64,000 nt of DNA, from assembly GCF_009914755.1 (NCBI RefSeq), contig NC_060934.1. One strand, given 5' to 3'. The translations under genes and the position numbers were made by a program. The stretch is from the human T2T-CHM13v2.0 reference genome, Homo sapiens. Each line of letters begins with the position of its first letter. Position 1 is the stretch's first letter. Under the pieces are notes generated by a model. That model searched no databases, was not told the DNA's origin, and saw only the letters and a program-made list of their open reading frames with translations. This document shows positions 4,726-13,010 of the stretch, in pieces.

Positions 4726-7700
4726 TCCTACTTTTAGTTCTTTAAGGAATCTCCACACCGTTTCCCATAGTGGCTGTACTAGTTTACATTCCCATCAGCA
4801 GTGTAGGAGTGTTCCCTGATCACTGCATCCATGTGAACATCTACTGTTTTTTGATTTTTTGGTTATGGCCATTCTTGCAGGAGTAAGTTGGTATCACATT
4901 GTGGTTTTGATTTGCATTTCCCTGATCACTGGTGATGTTGAGCATTTTTTCATATGTTTGTTGGCCATTTGTATATCTTCTTTTGAGAACTGTCTATTCA
5001 TGTCCTTAGCCCACTTTTTGATGGGATTGTTTGTTTTTTTTCTTACTGATTTGTTTGAGTTCATTGTAGATTCTGGATATTAGTCCTTTGTCAGAGGTAT
5101 AGATTGTGAAGATTTTCTCCCACTCTGTGGGTTGTCTGTTCCTCTGCTGACTGTTCCTTTTGCCATACAAAAGCTCTTTAGGTTAATTAAGTCCCAGCTA
5201 TTTATCTTTGTTTTTATTGCATTTGCTTTTGGGTTCTTGGTCATGAAATCCTTGCCTAAGCCAATGTCTACAGGGGTTTTTCCAATGTTATCTTCTAATA
5301 TTATCTCACTTCACTTAATGGTATCTTAATCATATCTTTGTGTTATCAAATATTTTTCTAAAATATGATTTTAACATATGTGGATATGCCATAATTCTAC
5401 AGCTGATTTATATTTAAGCTTTAATTTTTGTCATTATGAGTTGAATTTTGTGAACAAATTCACACATCTTTGGGCATGTCTCTGATTTTTTTCCTTAAGA
5501 CAGATTCCTAGAAAGGGAATTTTTGTGTCAAAGACTGTGATCATTTTTAAGATTACTGCCTAGAAAATTTGTCCCCAAATCCACTCCACCTGGAAGTATG
5601 CCCTACCTTCCTTTATGTGGAGTGTTCAATTATTTTTTAAATATTGTATTTGCATTTATTGTGGATGAAATCTTATATTTTATTGTTTTAACTTGCATTC
5701 CATGCTAGTAAAGCAAGTGTGACCCTCAATGTCCAATCACAGGTGTAAAGAACAATGTTATTTCTCTCTTTATGGAAAATTCTAAGCCCCCATCCCTTTC
5801 TTGGACCTTTTTTGTGGTCTGGCATCTTTTATGGATACTTTCTAGCCTCAGTGACCACTGGCCCTGGCTACCTCTGAGACCATGCGGCTCTGGTCGGCAG
5901 ACCAGAAACTAAAAATGGGCCCTTCATGTTTGCAGTCTTTGTTGCTCCCATTTCCTCCTTGGTCATAAGGCCCTCCCACCCCCAACTGCAGTGCCCACTG
6001 CCTGAAGTCACAGGTGGAGCCCCAGCCCCTGGCAGCCCTCCCAGGCTCTGCAAGGCCCCAGCCCCCTCTGCATCTCAGATGTTCTTCCTGGCCACCCCGG
6101 GACACAAGCATCCTCCATTTAGGGCATTGGGCTTTTAAGGGAGTGGCTGCCTCTGGGCTCTTCTCACTTCCAAAGAGGGCAAAACAGAAAACAACATGCA
6201 TTCAGCAACTCAGAAATCACCTTGCTGTACAGCCAGTCTCCTGGGGTCACAGGTTGTCTTCCCACGTGTCTCCCTGTTCTCCTGCTCTTTCATGATTTAT
6301 AAGAGCTCTTTGTACGGGAACGACAGTGGTCCTCTGGTTATAGTGTGTGTGGCAGTGGTTCCACAAGGGAGGCATTATTTGCCCTTGAACTTTGCCTGTG
6401 AGCTGTGCCTGTGCGTTGCTTTGCTTTGCTTTTTAATTTTGAAGGGAGTTGATGCCTCCCGTGCTTGTTTGCTTTCACTGTGCTTTCCTGATTAGAAAGG
6501 CTTTTCCACCCTCCACTCAGCATCTTATGGTTTCTTTGTTAACACTGGAACTCAATTGCTCTGGAATGGACTTGGGGGTTAGGGGTGTGGACTTCCATTT
6601 TCTCACCAGGTAGGGTGTGCCCCCAGCACCCCTAGACATGTCCCTTCTGTCTAGGTCAGCATTTGCTGGATTGCACAGGAGACCCGCGGTCTCCTGAAGG
6701 GGATGAGATGAGAAGGATGCGGAGAGATACTGAGGGGCTCCCCACCCAGCACCCTGCTGAGCCCCCCTTTCTCCCTGTGGAAGGAAAGACAAGCCTCACC
6801 CAGGCATTGACCATGGGTGACCACTCATTCTGCAAGCAGGTGAGATCCTCAGAGTGGCTTCCTCCCAGTGCTCAGCAGGATTCCTGGACAAAGGGAGTTG
6901 TCAACCTTTGGGTGGTGGCCCCACGACCCTACTTGAGAGCCCCTTGGCTCTGGCCTAGAGGCAGGGACCTCCATCCAGCCTCTGCTTCCCACCTGGGCCT
7001 TCACCTTGATTGTGCTTGAGACAGGTGGGGTGGGGGCCCAGTGAGAAGGAGGCAGAGAGGGGCTCCAGAGCCAGGCTCCTGTGGGGAGGGAGCCCATCCT
7101 TCTGAAGATATCATCAGGGTCTGAAGGCACATTGGGAGGTGTGCTCAGTCACTGAAATTAAATGAGGGACAACTACACACACAAGGAGCCTTCACCCCTG
7201 TTAGTCAGGGACACTGCTCGGCCCATGCCCCACCTCCACATCTCCTCCCTATCCTGCTGTGGCAGAGCCTGCCCTCTAGCCCTCTGCAGCCCCGACCCAA
7301 GTCCAGCTCCCGGCTCCCAGTCCTGCAGCTGCAGAGGCATCCTGGGGAGGGGCAGCTCCTGGCCCACCCCAAAGCAGAGTTTGGTAGCTATGTTGCATCT
7401 GGCATCTGCATTGGACTAAGAGATCCATCAAGTTCAACTAGGGGAACAGCTCCTTCATGTTCTGTTTGGCTGACTAATTCAATAGCAGACACCCAGGCCT
7501 GGGCTGGCAGAGGCACTCCCAAATCCAATGAAGGTCTCGCTCTGCAGCCAGTCTGGCAGCATTACCTGGGCATTTTGCTCGCTCAGCATAGACCTGAGTC
7601 AGGCCCCAGCCACCGCCACCCCCAGGAGCTCACAGGGCCATGCTACTGCCACCAGGCCTCCCCAAGCAAGCACCCTTCCTCATAAATAAGATTATTTATG

Positions 7701-8049
7701 GTGGGCAAAGATTAGAAAAACCCAGGCTATCTCTTTGTAGTGGTGAATGTTTTAAAATTAAAACCAACAGAAAGTAACACTTCCCAAGGGAACATTCTTA
7801 CAGTGACTATGACCTAAAACTTGTAACATTCATCACTTCTAAAATATGTTGAGGATATTTAATATATAATTGCATTGTGAACTCATTAAATATTTGCATA
7901 ATTATAAATAGAAAACATAAATAAAAGGAAAGGTTACAATATGAGTAAACACATAAAACTGATATTTAATTCACTGTGCTGATTAGCAGTGCACTTATTT
8001 ATATTGGTACTTGAGTTTAAGACTATATGCATACTTTTTTCTTTGTTTC

Positions 8050-8385
8050 AAATTTTTATTTTTTAAAATAAAATTATATATATTTAAGTGTACAGCCTGT
8101 TTTGATTCATATATGAATATCTATGTATGTGTTTGTATATATACATATGTATACACAGTTAAATGATTACTACAGTCAAATTAACATATCTATCTTCTCA
8201 TATAATTAGATGACAGCAACTGAAATATATTCTCTTTGCAAATTTCCAGTATGCAATATTATTAACTATAATCACATAACTGCAACTTTGTACTCTTGGA
8301 CCAACAGATTCCCTTTTCTCCTACCGCCCTGTCCCTGGTAACCACCATTCTACCCTGCTTCCATGTATGAAATTTTTAAGATTCT
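8050..8385 (-). mobile_element. L1MA-type 3' end fragment
   Basis: ccctggtaaccaccattcta and ttaacatatctatc motifs typical of L1MA 3'UTRs. Confidence 0.65.
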
Positions 8386-8686
<301 letters not shown>

Positions 8687-9012
8687 CAATAGAGTACCTC
8701 AACACTCTATTATAATCAACACTCCACTATCGTCAATGGACAAATCATCCAGATAACAAAAAAGTATGAGTTAAGCTGTACTCTATACCAAATTAACCTA
8801 ATAGAAATTTACAAAGCTTTCCATCCACAACTGCACAATGCACATTCTACTCAGCAGCACATGGATTATTCTCTAGGATACACTATGTGTTAGGCCAAAG
8901 ATTAAGTAACAACACATTTTTAAAAACTGAAATCATATCAAGTATCTTTTCTTACCACAGTGGAGCACTACTAGAAATCAATAACAGCAGGAAATTTAAA
9001 AACTTTACCAAT

Positions 9013-9102
9013 AGCCACAGTGGCTCAGGCCAGTTGTCCTGGTGCTCAGGGAGGCAAGGCTACACTTTCGAGGCCAACCTGGTCAACATTGACAAAAAAA
9101 AA
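9013..9102 (+). ncRNA. snaR-related (ASR/CAS-like) Alu-left-monomer derivative; possible Pol III gene or pseudogene
   Basis: agccacagtggctcaggccagttg...ctcagggaggc...ttcgaggccaacctggtcaacat + A tract resembles snaR (recalled: GAGCCATTGTGGCTCAGGCCGGTTG...CTCACGGAGGC...GTTCGAGGCCAGCCTGGTCCACATG); A-box 9021-9031, degenerate B-box 9066-9074. Confidence 0.7.
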
Positions 9103-9105
9103 TAA

Positions 9106-9405
<300 letters not shown>

Positions 9406-11940
9406 CTGTACAAATATATGAAAATTGAAATACATGCTTATGAACAACTGATAAATGAAAAAATTTAAAATTCATTGAAACAAATAAGGGAAATTAAAAA
9501 TTCATTGAAACAAGAATAGAAACACAATGTAACAAAACCTGTGGGATGCAGCAAAAGCAATTGTAAGAGAAAAAGTGCGTAGCTATAAATGCCTTCATCC
9601 AAAAAGTAGAAAGATCTCAAATAGCCAACCTGACAGTACAGTTCAAGTAATGAGGAAAACAAGAAAAATCAAATGCTAAAATTAGTAGAAAAAAATAAAA
9701 CATAAATATTAGGGAAGAAATTTTAAAAATAGAAACTAAAAAAATTACAAAAAGTCAAAGGAACAAAGAGCTGGGGTTGTTTAGAAAAAAAAAATCAAAA
9801 TTGACAAGCTATGAAGAGACTAGGAAAAAGAAAAAGAAAACTGCAATAAAATCATAGATGAAAAAGGAGACATTACAATTGATAACACAGAAATACAAAG
9901 GATCGTAAGAGATTACTAAAAACACCTATATAGAAACAAACTGAAAAATCTAGGAGAAATGAATAAATTTCTGGCAACATAAAAAATTCTCAAGATAGAA
10001 TAATAAAGAAATAAAAATTCTGAACAGACTAATAATAAGTAATGAAATTAAAGCAGTAATAAAAATATCCTATCAAAGAAAAACAGAAGAATTATGGCTT
10101 CACTGCTGAATTCTACTAAACATTTTTAAAAGAAGTAATACTAATTTTACTCCCCAAAAAATAAAAAGGAAGAAATACTTCCAAACTTGTTCTATGAGGC
10201 CAGCATTACCCTGCTACAAAAACCAGACCAGGACACAGCACAAAAAGAAAACCACAGGCAAATATCCCTGATGAACATAGATGCAAAAAATCCTCAACAA
10301 AATACTTGGAGAAAATTGCACTTGACAACACAATAAGAAGATCATCTGCCATGATCAAGTGGGATACGTTGGAGGAATATGAGAATGATTCAATAAACAA
10401 AAATAAATAAATGCCATACATCACATTCAATGAATCAAGAACAAAAACCATATAATCATTTCAGTAGATGCTGAAAACAATAAAATTCAACATTCTTCCA
10501 TGATAAAAACTAAAAATGAGTACAGAAGGAACATATTTCAGCACAATAAAGGCCATATATGACAAACCCACAGCTAACGTAATCAATGGGGGAAAAGATA
10601 AAAGCTCTTCCTCTAAGATCTTAAACAAGTGTGGCTGCTTTTACCACTTTTATTCATCATGGTACAGGAAGTGCTAGCTAGAGCAATTAGACAGGAGAAT
10701 GCAATGAAAGGCATCCAAATTGGAAAAAAAGGAAGTCAAACTATCTCTGTTTGCAGGTGACATGATCATATATACATAGAGAGAGAACCCTAAGGATTCC
10801 ACAAAAAAAACCTACTAGACATAATAAATTTAGTAAAGTTGCAAAATACAATATCAATATACAAAAATGAGTACCAGGCCCATGCACCAATAGTGAAACA
10901 CATAAGAAAGAAATCAAGAAAGCTATTTCATTACAGTAGCTGCCCACCACCCCACAAAAAAAATTGCTACCTAAGGATAGACTTAACCAAAAACGTCAAA
11001 GACCCTACAATGAAAACTATAAAACATAGATGAAAGATATTAAAGCAGATACAAGTAAATGGAAAGATATCCCATCTGCATGCACCAGAAGACTATTGTT
11101 AAAATATCTATATCACTCAATGTGATCTACAGAATCAATGCAATCCATGTTAAATTACAAAAGACATTCTTCATAGAAATAGAAAAAAAACTATACTAAA
11201 ATTCACATGGAAATGCAAAATACCTCAGATAAACAAAAGAATCTTGAATAAAAAGAAAAGCTGGAGGCATCACACTACCTGATTTCAAAATACACTACAA
11301 AATATATTATAATTCTATAGTAACTTCAAATCTATAGTATAGTATCAAAACAGCATGGTACTTCAAAAAAAGGGGCAAGGGAGAGACAGAGACAGACAAA
11401 TGACAGACATAAACAAATGAAACAGAATAGAGAACTCAGAAATAAATTAACATATTTACAGTCAACACATTTTTAACAAAGGCACCAAGAACACATCTTC
11501 CTGAAGGACAATCTCTTCAATAAACTTTGCTAGGAAAACCCAACACCCAAATGTAGAAGAATAAATCTAGACCGTTATCTTATCATATACAAAAATCAAC
11601 TCAAAATGAAGATTTAAATGTAGGACCTGAAACTACGAAACTACTAGAGAAGAAAACATAGGATAAATGCTTAATGAAACTGGTTAGGACAAGGAATTTT
11701 CAAATAGACATCAAAAGCACAAGCAATAAAAGCAAAAATAGACAAATGGAATTACATTAAACTTAAAAGCTTCTGCAAAGCAGAGGAAGCAATCAGTAGA
11801 AAGAAGAAACAATCCAGAGACTGAAAGAAAGTATTTGCAAACTTTACCTCAGGCAAGCAGTTAATACACAAGATATATAAAGCAAAACTACTCAAAAGCA
11901 AAAATGAAAATAATCTAATTTAAAAATCAGAAAAAGATCT

Positions 11941-12400
11941 CCCCAAAACTTTGTCCCCCACCATTATTTCCCCAACTTCTTTTCCCAACTGCCTTCAGCC
12001 CCCTCCCTCTCGCCACCCTTTTTTTCTCCATCTAGCCCAAAACTTTTTCCCCACCATTTTCCCCCAACGTCTTTTCACAAAGCCCTCTCTGCTGCTCACA
12101 ACCCTTTTCCCCACCAACTTTTCCCCTTCTCCTTGGCCACCCTCTTTTCCCCTCTCACGCTCTCATCACCCTCTTGTTCTCCTCCATCTACCCGAAAACA
12201 TTTTGCCCCGTCTTTTGCCAAAGCCTTCTCCCCACTCCTGCTGCTCACCACTGTCTTTTCAAACTCCATCTACCCAAAAACTTATTTTCCCCCCACCCTC
12301 TTCTTGCAACGCCTTCTCCTGCTCTCCATCCTTTTTTCCCTTTGGCACTCACCACCCTCTTTATCCCTCCATGTACCCCAAAACTATTTTCTTCTCTCCT
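11941..12400. repeat. C/T-rich degenerate low-complexity repeat flanking the REP522-like element
   Basis: Recurring ccatctacccaaaaact / ttttcccccacc modules; very few G on the + strand. Confidence 0.75.
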
Positions 12401-12518
12401 ACCACTCCAGCTGCGCAGCAGTCTCCTTCTCCGCCACCAACCGCAGCCAGGCGAGGTGTGATGTCACAGGCCCCAGCTTCCAACGTGCCGCAGATGGCTC
12501 CCCTTTCTCGTCGTCTAG

Positions 12519-13010
<492 letters not shown>

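What the first reader, a model, noticed from the sequence alone, without database searches (positions are those of the whole stretch)
9013..9102. snaR-ancestor-like (ASR/CAS) small RNA element hidden in an old L1
Seen: a ~90-nt element with Alu-like A-box TGGCTCAGGCC, B-box-like TTTCGAGGC and an A tail, much shorter than an Alu left monomer. It shares snaR-type words (gtggctcaggcc.gttg, ctca.ggaggc, ttcgaggcca.cctggtc.acat) but lacks the internal expansions of snaR as I recall it. Established: snaR Pol III RNAs derive from a deleted FLAM via ASR/CAS intermediates spread by segmental duplication. It would easily be masked as an Alu scrap.
Basis: partly seen in the sequence, partly recalled or inferred. 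Interest (0 to 1): 0.75.

Follow-up and report, generated by a model that had tools for sequence, protein, structure and literature searches.

The report
Dead CAS retrocopy inside old L1
This is a decayed, retrotransposed copy of CAS, the already described Alu-derived ancestor family of the snaR small RNAs, sitting in an old L1 with a later Alu in its tail; it is an ordinary genomic fossil.

Summary
Window 9013-9093 is an 81-nt Alu-derived element with an A-rich tail (9094-9105).

It is not a random Alu scrap. A search of the window's own genome found 39 paralogues on many chromosomes, and all of them share the same internal deletion relative to Alu left monomers. Two of these paralogues are letter-for-letter the published CAS elements HsX and HsERV of Parrott et al. 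2010/2011.

The window copy has both deletions, delta1 and delta2. It lacks the two snaR expansions. That makes it CAS, not ASR and not snaR.

It was inserted by L1-type retrotransposition into an L1 ORF2 remnant. The target-site duplication is 15 nt and is shown by empty-site L1 paralogues. A dimeric Alu later landed in its A tail.

It looks dead:
- the B box is mutated;
- 5 of 6 CpGs are lost;
- there is no T4 terminator for about 700 nt;
- its fold is no better than shuffled sequence.

The family and its mechanism are already published, so interest is low.

The parts
8700..8997 (+). 5' flank: decayed L1 ORF2 remnant (C-terminal end of the endonuclease domain)
   Evidence: window 8700-9012 has 2375 first-look candidates in the genome. 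40 of them were scored, giving 49 matches, the non-self ones at 73-92% identity; the translation of 8797-9012 matches LINE-1 ORF2p residues 187-237 (nt 8830-8982) at E 2e-4; 7 of 7 hits are L1 ORF2.
8998..9012 (+). 5' target-site duplication, AAAAACTTTACCAAT
   Evidence: in L1 paralogues L075-L079 the two window flanks overlap by 14-15 nt. L074-L079 carry the sequence AAAAACT(G/A)TACAAA(T/C) once, directly after TTT; a 15-nt repeat with 2 mismatches.
9013..9093 (+). CAS body (catarrhine ancestor of snaR), lacking the family's first 3 nt (GGG)
   Evidence: 39 paralogues at 80-91% identity; 71 of 80 matches to the CAS majority sequence with no gaps; paralogues L005 and L024 equal the published HsX and HsERV; the copy lies inside the CAS+snaR clade.
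9020..9031 (+). A-box region GTGGCTCAGGCC (family positions +11-22)
   Evidence: the same 12-mer occurs in 21 of 40 copies and is the commonest form. The position is as given in PMC3045588.
9066..9074 (+). B box, mutated: TTTCGAGGC (family GTTCGAGGC, positions +57-65)
   Evidence: it fails the consensus GWTCRANNC printed in the paper's Fig. S4 legend. 21 of 40 copies meet the consensus; the window copy is one of the 19 that do not.
9094..9105 (+). A-rich tail of the CAS copy (A9TAA), interrupted by the Alu
   Evidence: direct reading. A-rich tails follow the core in most of the paralogues shown.
9106..9400 (+). Full-length dimeric Alu with its own A-rich tail, inserted in the CAS tail
   Evidence: the SRP model hits 9106-9222 (68.3 bits) and 9241-9388 (49.2 bits). 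The Alu lies inside the outer 15-nt duplication.
9401..9415 (+). 3' target-site duplication, AAAAACTGTACAAAT
9416..9560 (+). 3' flank: continuation of the same L1 remnant
   Evidence: window 9401-9559 aligns to the same L1 paralogues (L075-L079), directly continuing the 5' flank.

Best explanation
Window 9013-9105 is a processed, retrotransposed copy of CAS, the low-copy Alu-derived SINE described by Parrott et al. as the catarrhine ancestor of snaR.

Shown: it carries the family's two defining deletions (delta1 and delta2), lacks the snaR expansions, ends in an A tail, and lies within a 15-nt target-site duplication that starts at a TTT|AAAAA site in an L1 ORF2 remnant.

Inferred: a Pol III transcript of a source CAS gene was reverse-transcribed into this site by the L1 machinery. 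The papers place the source at the chr19 parent locus. The copy was made at a middle stage of CAS evolution and lost the first 3 nt. Later a dimeric Alu used the CAS A tail as its own target.

Inferred: the copy is now inert. Its B box has lost the first G, 5 of its 6 CpGs have decayed, no T4 terminator follows for about 700 nt, and it has no fold stability. It most likely makes no discrete small RNA and has no function.
For: - Family. The 80-nt core finds 39 other places on many chromosomes at 80-91% identity. Three queries together give 73 distinct places on 20 of 24 contigs.
- Shared indels. The 19-column gap against 7 Alu left monomers is present in the window copy, in 39 of 39 paralogues and in 4 snaR genes. 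The 3' segment kept by the ASR-type rows is absent from the window copy and from the CAS rows.
- Match counts. CAS majority 71/80 with 0 gap columns. ASR 68/80 plus 13 gap columns. Alu left 53/80 plus 34 gap columns. snaR 57/80 plus 16 gap columns.
- Published references. L005 equals HsX and L024 equals the CAS in HERV-44200, both with 0 mismatches. The window core is 87.5% identical to L005 and 85.3% to L024.
- Tree on 80 substitution-only columns. Alu left monomers split from all the rest with 100/100 support. The window copy lies inside a 26-row CAS+snaR clade (94/86). The snaR clade (100/98) excludes it.
- Retrotransposition. Flanks 8900-9012 and 9401-9559 overlap by 14-15 nt on L1 paralogues L075-L079. 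L074-L079 carry the site once.
- Direct repeats in the family. 26 of 39 other copies have a flanking repeat of at least 10 nt that is not A-rich. Mismatched flank pairs give 83 of 746, or 11.1%.
- Host L1. ORF2p residues 187-237, E 2e-4.
- Decay. 4 of 9 differences from the CAS majority are CpG transitions, and 1 of 6 CpGs is kept. The B box fails GWTCRANNC. The first TTTT lies at 9721. The fold z-score is +0.77, with 151 of 200 shuffles folding at least as well; snaR-A gives z -2.61, with 1 of 200.
[quoted passage not shown] It ascribes the scarcity of ESTs to B-box mutations and missing oligo-T tracts (Fig. S4 legend).
Against: - No expression, ChIP or primate-orthology data could be consulted. 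'Inert' and 'catarrhine-age' are therefore inferences.
- The element is short (80 nt), so tree forks within CAS are weakly resolved. 23 of 46 inner branches are drawn open, and no starred clade holds the window copy.
- The 5' target-site copy differs from the 3' copy at 2 of 15 positions.
- The order 'CAS first, Alu second' rests on parsimony only. The Alu's own A-rich duplication cannot be seen.
- The published locus list (Supplementary Data S3/S4, an old .doc file) could not be read. Whether this exact locus is among the 24 published human CAS is unknown.
- A B box with T at its first position may still bind TFIIIC weakly.
Confidence: 0.93

Rival explanations
1. It is an ordinary free left Alu monomer (FLAM) or Alu scrap that happened to suffer random internal deletions.
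For: The element is Alu-derived. Its A-box and B-box words and its 3' end align to Alu left monomers of the window at 53 of 80 positions. The paper says RepeatMasker scores ASR as closest to FLAM C / AluJb left arm.
Against: - Both gaps lie at the same columns in the window copy and in the paralogues. Delta1 is shared by 39 of 39.
- Many substitutions are also shared: GGCC.GTTGTCC against the Alu's CGCCTGTAATCC, and GAGGCCA against GAGACCA.
- The tree on substitution-only columns splits Alu left monomers from the family with 100/100 support.
- The Rfam SRP model hits the Alus but not this element.
Confidence: 0.01
2. It is an ASR (Alu/snaR-related) element, the older simian-wide stage, rather than CAS.
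For: It shares some older character states with the ASR majority: TTGTCC and GGTGC at core positions 25 and 31-32. Identity to the ASR majority over shared columns is 68/80.
Against: ASR-type copies keep about 13-19 nt (AACCTCTCATCTAT...) between ...CAACATAG and the tail. The window copy goes from ...CAACATTGA straight into C plus the A tail, which gives 13 gap columns against the ASR majority. It also has CTGGTC, the CAS state, where ASR has CTGGGC. In the tree it sits well inside the CAS grade.
Confidence: 0.02
3. It is a retrotransposed snaR pseudogene, like snaR-21, which lacks the expansions.
For: snaR-A is its only full-length Rfam match. The paper describes snaR-21 as lacking both expansions and flanked by direct repeats. 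The chr21 copy L062 fits that description.
Against: The window copy lacks the substitutions that L062 shares with the snaR genes: ATTGTGG, GGTCCACAT and GGGTACGAG. It has ACAGTGG, GGTCAACAT and GGCTACACT instead. The snaR+L062 clade (100/98) excludes it. Its Rfam score of 21.5 bits is far under the gathering score of 98.
Confidence: 0.01
4. It is still a live Pol III unit. The intact A box and the near-consensus B box recruit TFIIIC and Pol III, giving a small RNA or a read-through CAS-Alu transcript.
For: The A-box 12-mer is identical to the commonest family form. The B box differs from consensus at one position only. One human CAS locus (chr8) has ESTs compatible with Pol III transcription (Fig. 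S4 legend).
Against: - The first G of the B box is lost. The consensus GWTCRANNC is not met.
- There is no TTTT until 9721, after a whole Alu and more L1.
- The first 3 nt of the family are missing.
- The predicted fold is no more stable than shuffles.
- The copy lies in L1 sequence, not in the chr19 parent-locus context that the authors think gives expression.
- RefSeq lists no functional element here (hub annotation).
Confidence: 0.04
5. The CAS and the Alu arrived together as one composite retrocopy, or the Alu came first, rather than the Alu landing in a pre-existing CAS tail.
For: One 15-nt duplication brackets both elements. No separate duplication for the Alu can be seen.
Against: A search across the junction (9050-9140) finds no other locus with the same junction. 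Three other CAS copies (chr19, chr1, chr18) match across it only at 79-84% with different tail lengths, so they took up Alus in their tails independently. If the Alu had come first, the CAS would need a duplication of its own around 9013-9105, and none is visible. A-rich tails are the usual L1-endonuclease target (established knowledge).
Confidence: 0.03

Closest known systems
CAS (catarrhine ancestor of snaR) retrotransposon family, Parrott et al., Nucleic Acids Res 2011 (PMC3045588)
   Same: About 85 nt plus an oligo-A tail. The delta1 and delta2 deletions, the A box at +11-22 and the B box at +57-65 are all as described, and flanking direct repeats are present. It aligns without gaps at 85-88% identity to the published HsX and HsERV elements.
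   Different: This copy lacks the first 3 nt and has a G-to-T change at the first B-box position. It carries a few older states (TTGTCC, GGTGC, a ...GAC tail) that place it at a middle rung of the CAS ladder. I could not check whether it is one of the 24 listed human CAS.
ASR (Alu/snaR-related) elements
   Same: Same delta1 deletion and the same A-box and B-box words. Also a low-copy retrotransposon with target-site duplications.
   Different: ASR keeps the 3' segment of about 13 nt (delta2 region) and has CTGGGCAACATAG. The window copy lacks the segment and has CTGGTCAACATTG.
snaR-A and other snaR genes (Rfam RF02556)
   Same: Common descent. The 5' end (AGCC..GTGGCTC.GGCC.GTTG), the B box TTCGAGGCCA.CCTGGTC and the A-rich 3' end all align.
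   Different: snaR has 16 extra columns (epsilon1 and epsilon2), an oligo-T terminator, a stable fold (z -2.61) and tandem arrays on chr19. The window copy has none of these and scores 21.5 bits against the gathering score of 98.
FLAM_C / Alu left monomer
   Same: The ultimate ancestor. The Pol III A-box and B-box layout and the 7SL-derived ends are shared.
   Different: The Alu left monomers of the window carry 17-19 nt (delta1) and the 3' segment that the element lacks. Over shared columns only 53 of 80 positions match.

Membership tests
CAS (catarrhine ancestor of snaR) | Internal deletion delta1 of 17-19 nt between the A and B boxes, relative to FLAM C / Alu left monomer | tested here: met
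   a 19-column gap against 7 Alu left monomers of the window (17 nt against those lacking the CT dinucleotide). It lies at the same columns in all 39 paralogues.
CAS (catarrhine ancestor of snaR) | 3' deletion delta2 (about 13 nt) relative to ASR | tested here: met
   13 gap columns against the ASR majority. The window reads ...CAACATTGA, then C, then the A tail.
CAS (catarrhine ancestor of snaR) | No epsilon1 or epsilon2 8-nt expansions (these separate snaR from CAS) | tested here: met
   16 gap columns against snaR. Two blocks of the Rfam snaR-A model are unmatched.
CAS (catarrhine ancestor of snaR) | About 85 nt excluding the 3' oligo-(A/T) tract | tested here: met
   the body 9013-9093 is 81 nt, which is the family length less the first 3 nt (GGG in most copies).
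CAS (catarrhine ancestor of snaR) | High, contiguous identity to published CAS reference sequences | tested here: met
   The published HsX and HERV-44200 CAS sequences (Fig. S5) match L005 and L024 exactly. The window core is 87.5% identical to L005 over 80 nt and 85.3% to L024 over 75 nt, without gaps.
CAS (catarrhine ancestor of snaR) | Pol III A box (+11-22) and consensus B box GWTCRANNC (+57-65). 'Most' CAS have them; this is not strictly defining. | tested here: inconclusive
   The A-box 12-mer equals the commonest family form. The B box TTTCGAGGC fails the consensus at position 1. 21 of 40 copies meet it.
CAS (catarrhine ancestor of snaR) | Retrotransposon hallmarks: A tail and flanking short direct repeats (over 69% of human CAS) | tested here: met
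   The tail is at 9094-9105. The 15-nt duplication at 8998-9012 / 9401-9415 is proven by empty-site L1 paralogues. In the family, 26 of 39 copies have repeats against an 11.1% control.
CAS (catarrhine ancestor of snaR) | [quoted passage not shown] | not testable with these tools
   No primate genomes other than the window's own assembly are held.
CAS (catarrhine ancestor of snaR) | Listed among the 24 human CAS loci of Supplementary Data S3/S4 | not testable with these tools
   The dataset is an old .doc file that cannot be read. Searches of the readable supplement for Hs10 and Ch10 found nothing.
ASR (Alu/snaR-related) | Has delta1 but retains the 3' segment of about 13 nt | tested here: not met
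   the segment is absent.
snaR (Rfam RF02556) | Rfam gathering score of 98 bits; epsilon1 and epsilon2 expansions; 3' oligo-U; flanks from the chr19 parent duplicon | tested here: not met
   The element scores 21.5 bits and has no expansions. The first TTTT is at 9721. The flanks are L1, not the GCCCCGACACCCGG context seen at snaR loci.
FLAM_C / Alu left monomer | Contiguous left-monomer sequence without delta1 or delta2 | tested here: not met
   34 gap columns in two openings and 53 of 80 matches; separated with 100/100 support.

The most novel reading that the evidence does not exclude
The copy is not wholly dead. Its intact A box and one-off B box still load TFIIIC and Pol III. That would give either a read-through CAS-Alu chimeric transcript of about 700 nt (to the first T4 at 9721) or an 'extra TFIIIC'-type chromatin site 35 kb from ZNF248, in testis or transformed cells. 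A milder version: this chr10 locus is one of the CAS-type copies missing from the 2010 list. I count at least 32 CAS-type places in the T2T assembly against 24 published.
Probability: 0.04. Interest if true: 0.4.

Novelty: already known. Interest (0 to 1): 0.12.

Why it matters
It matters little in itself. The CAS family, its descent from FLAM C through ASR, and its spread by retrotransposition were published in 2010-2011. This copy shows every sign of being a neutral fossil.

Its small value is as a dated rung in the 'master gene' ladder that led to snaR. It carries delta2 and the CTGGTC change but not the later TTGCCC, GGCAC and GATT-tail changes. It therefore records a middle state of the chr19 source gene.

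The case also shows that such elements can be recognised from raw sequence. A complete T2T census would probably enlarge the published list: I found at least 32 CAS-type and at least 40 ASR-type places, a lower bound.

Tried and rejected
I then ran Pfam on 15 stop-free ORF pieces from 5969-12720. It gave 0 families for 15 of 15, so Pfam does not support the L1 call.
- PDB sequence searches were then used. The piece 8693-8890 gave only weak L1 endonuclease hits (E 0.47). The 3' piece 9533-9676 gave no L1 hit. The piece 8797-9012 gave the usable match.
- BLAST of the flanks against the rest of the window found only Alu-tail matches and no L1 paralogue. Empty sites were therefore taken from the genome.
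- RNA folding as evidence of function came out negative. z-scores were: window copy +0.77, a young CAS copy (L007) +0.32, L003 -0.20, an ASR copy (L025) -0.80. Only snaR-A stands out, at -2.61.
- The published locus list was unavailable. Text searches of the supplementary figures for Hs10, Pt10 and Ch10 returned nothing, probably because the alignments are pictures.
- A literature search for the phrase 'catarrhine ancestor of snaR' found only the two Parrott papers in the held library. I saw no later annotation or expression study of CAS. This does not cover subscription journals.
- The Alu subfamily was not determined with a tool. No age estimate was made beyond the terminal branch length of 0.049 substitutions per site.

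Full report
**1. The observation**

Reading the window shows an 81-nt body on the + strand at 9013-9093. It runs AGCCACAGTGGCTCAGGCCAGTTGTCCTGGTGCTCAGGGAGGCAAGGCTACACTTTCGAGGCCAACCTGGTCAACATTGAC. An A-rich tail (A9TAA, 9094-9105) follows, and a full dimeric Alu starts at 9106.

The A-box-like GTGGCTCAGGCC is at 9020-9031 and the B-box-like TTTCGAGGC at 9066-9074.

In an Rfam scan of 8000-10500, the four Alu monomers nearby hit the SRP model at 68.3, 49.2, 41.0 and 32.7 bits. The element does not hit it. Its only end-to-end match is snaR-A (RF02556, model positions 1-115) at 19.7 bits. In a 119-nt search this rises to 21.5 bits and E 0.0089, far below the gathering score of 98. The alignment leaves two internal blocks of the model unmatched.

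**2. It belongs to a dispersed family with the same deletion pattern**

The window's own assembly can be searched. The 80-nt core (9013-9092) gave 40 scored matches out of 47 candidates. One is itself. The other 39 are at 80-91% identity on many chromosomes, most of them covering positions 1-80 without gaps.

I extracted all 39 with their flanks. I aligned them with 7 Alu left monomers from the window and 4 snaR genes found with the Rfam model. The alignment shows the following.
- A 19-column gap relative to the Alu left monomers is present at the same columns in the window copy, in 39 of 39 paralogues and in the 4 snaR genes.
- A second, 3' gap is shared by the window copy, the CAS-type rows and snaR. 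13 rows do not have it. They keep a segment such as AACCTCTCATCTATGTAAC in front of the tail. (One of them, L011, keeps a variant form.)
- The snaR genes have 16 columns that all the other rows lack.

Match counts for the window copy:

| Compared with (majority sequence) | Matches | Gap columns |
|---|---|---|
| CAS-type | 71 of 80 | 0 |
| ASR-type | 68 of 80 | 13 |
| Alu left monomers | 53 of 80 | 34 |
| snaR | 57 of 80 | 16 |

**3. Comparison with what is in print**

Parrott et al. (Nucleic Acids Res 2011, PMC3045588) describe two families. I read the abstract, passages found by term search, and supplementary figure legends. I read part 1 of 3 of the review PMC3337139.
- ASR is FLAM C with an internal deletion delta1 of 17-19 nt. 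It is found in all monkeys and apes.
- CAS is ASR with a further 3' deletion delta2 of about 13 nt. It is about 85 nt long and has an A box at +11-22 and a B box at +57-65. [quoted passage not shown]
- snaR arose from CAS by two 8-nt expansions, epsilon1 and epsilon2.
- ASR and CAS spread by retrotransposition. snaR spread by segmental duplication.

The three indels seen are exactly these.

The legend and text of Supplementary Figure S5 print two human CAS sequences: HsX, and the copy inside HERV-44200. Both match my loci L005 (chrX) and L024 (chr19) with 0 mismatches. L005 and L024 were retrieved using the window element as the query, and they are 87.5% and 85.3% identical to it. Membership in CAS is therefore tested against published reference sequences, not against memory.

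The element is CAS, not ASR (the delta2 segment is absent). It is not snaR (no expansions, and no snaR-specific substitutions).

**4. Position within the family**

I built a maximum-likelihood tree on the 80 columns that are free of the indels.
- Alu left monomers separate from everything else with 100/100 support.
- ASR-type rows form a basal grade, followed by early CAS-type rows.
- A 26-row clade (94/86) holds the window copy, 20 CAS rows and the snaR clade.
- The snaR clade (100/98) includes L062 on chr21. L062 fits the paper's description of snaR-21.

Inside the 26-row clade the window copy branches after L008 and L003 and before a group of 16 young CAS rows plus snaR. It has the derived CTGGTC and delta2. 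It keeps the older states TTGTCC and GGTGC and a ...GAC tail like L003, L008 and L015.

With 80 columns many forks are open (23 of 46), and no strongly supported small clade holds the window copy. The rung is therefore indicative only. The ladder shape agrees with the single-source-locus model of the authors.

**5. How it got there**

The 5' flank (8700-9012) is a high-copy repeat, with 2375 first-look candidates. Its translation over 8797-9012 matches LINE-1 ORF2p residues 187-237 at E 2e-4, and 7 of 7 PDB hits are L1 ORF2. A shorter piece gave only E 0.47.

On L1 paralogues L075-L079, the window's 5' flank (ending at 9012) and its 3' flank (starting at 9401) overlap by 14-15 nt. L074-L079 read ...AGGAACTTT AAAAACT(G/A)TACAAA(T/C) ATATG... 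with the site present once. The window has AAAAACTTTACCAAT at 8998-9012 and AAAAACTGTACAAAT at 9401-9415. This is a 15-nt target-site duplication with 2 later mismatches. It starts at TTT|AAAAA, the usual kind of L1-endonuclease site (established knowledge).

The duplication brackets both the CAS and the Alu. The simplest history is that the CAS inserted first, losing the family's first three bases, and that the Alu later inserted into the CAS A tail.

A search across the junction (9050-9140) found no locus with the same junction. Three other CAS copies match across it at 79-84% with different tail lengths, so they acquired Alus in their tails independently.

Across the family, 26 of 39 other copies have a flanking direct repeat of at least 10 nt that is not A-rich, within 100 nt. 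Mismatched upstream/downstream pairs give 83 of 746, or 11.1% (individual repeats). This agrees with the paper's figure of over 69%.

**6. Does it do anything?**

Everything testable here says no.
- The first G of the B box is changed to T, so the printed consensus GWTCRANNC is not met. 21 of 40 copies meet it.
- 4 of the 9 differences from the CAS majority are CpG transitions, and only 1 of 6 CpGs survives.
- The first TTTT downstream is at 9721, beyond the whole Alu and more L1. A Pol III transcript starting here would not be a discrete RNA of about 90 nt.
- The predicted fold (-23.6 kcal/mol) is no better than shuffles: z +0.77, with 151 of 200 shuffles at least as stable. snaR-A gives z -2.61, with 1 of 200.
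[quoted passage not shown] They attribute the scarcity of ESTs to B-box mutations and missing oligo-T tracts.
- The copy lies about 35 kb from the nearest annotated ZNF248 exon, and RefSeq lists no functional element here (hub annotation).

I could not consult expression or ChIP data, so 'inert' is an inference. I put about 4% on residual Pol III or TFIIIC activity.

**7. Census by-product**

I ran two further queries, one with a young CAS copy and one with an ASR copy. Each returned 40 scored matches, from 52 and 77 candidates. The union of the three searches is 73 distinct places on 20 of 24 contigs. Reading their sequences, I class them as follows:
- 32 CAS-type. This includes the window copy, one copy whose 5' end does not align (L069) and one cut short at its 3' end (L087).
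- 1 snaR-21-like (L062).
- 40 ASR-type.

These are lower bounds, because only 40 candidates are scored per search. The classing of the last 33 was by eye. The figure of 32 exceeds the 24 human CAS published. Combined with the unreadable locus list, this leaves open whether this chr10 copy was catalogued.

**8. Verdict**

I sharpen it to 'CAS retrocopy' and correct it on the mode of spread.

Family, origin and mechanism have been in print since 2010. A search of the held library for the family's full name finds only the two Parrott papers. This is a known kind, most likely a neutral fossil. Interest is low.

Noticed in passing
G000 chr19 50.74-50.95 Mb and 53.09-53.23 Mb (loci L031-L060 and further rows): The Rfam snaR-A model finds 54 matches in this T2T assembly. 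52 are above the gathering score, and all of those lie in two chr19 arrays. The 2011 review counts 30 human snaR loci, 14 of them snaR-A. The complete assembly seems to hold more copies than the older reference count.
   Followed up: no
L085 (G000 chr7:26,182,937-26,183,022): This is a CAS-length copy without expansions that nonetheless carries snaR-type substitutions (ATTGTGG, GGTCCACATTGGTTG). It fits the paper's description of the chr7 intermediate 'Hs7i' between CAS and snaR.
   Followed up: partly
L004, L010, L018, L021, L024, L029, L066; L081, L083, L086, L090; window 9106: About a dozen of the 73 CAS/ASR places have an Alu starting right after their A-rich tail, each with a different tail length. 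A tails of these small elements seem to be frequent Alu landing sites.
   Followed up: partly
L008 (G000 chr6:33,044,123-33,044,197): This CAS copy has its 17-nt direct repeat (CCAATTTGGATG...) starting directly after ...ATTGA, with no A tail at all. That is unusual for an L1-mediated insertion.
   Followed up: no
L100-L113: This older-looking set of ASR-type copies reads GAGACCAGCCTGGGCAACATAGGAAGCCCTCATCTAT. That is closer to Alu/FLAM in the B-box region and the 3' segment than the commoner ASR form (GAGGCCAGCC...AGAAACCTCTCATCTAT). It suggests ASR subfamilies.
   Followed up: no
window 8387-8690: A second dimeric Alu (SRP model hits at 8387-8503 and 8523-8669) lies in the same L1 remnant about 320 nt upstream of the CAS copy.
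   Followed up: no
L074, L075 (G000 chr22:25.14 Mb and 23.77 Mb): These are the closest relatives of the L1 flank (87% and 86% over 311 nt), clearly closer than the next tier at 82-83%. Both have the empty site. They could belong to the same L1 subfamily or to an old duplication that predates the CAS insertion.
   Followed up: partly
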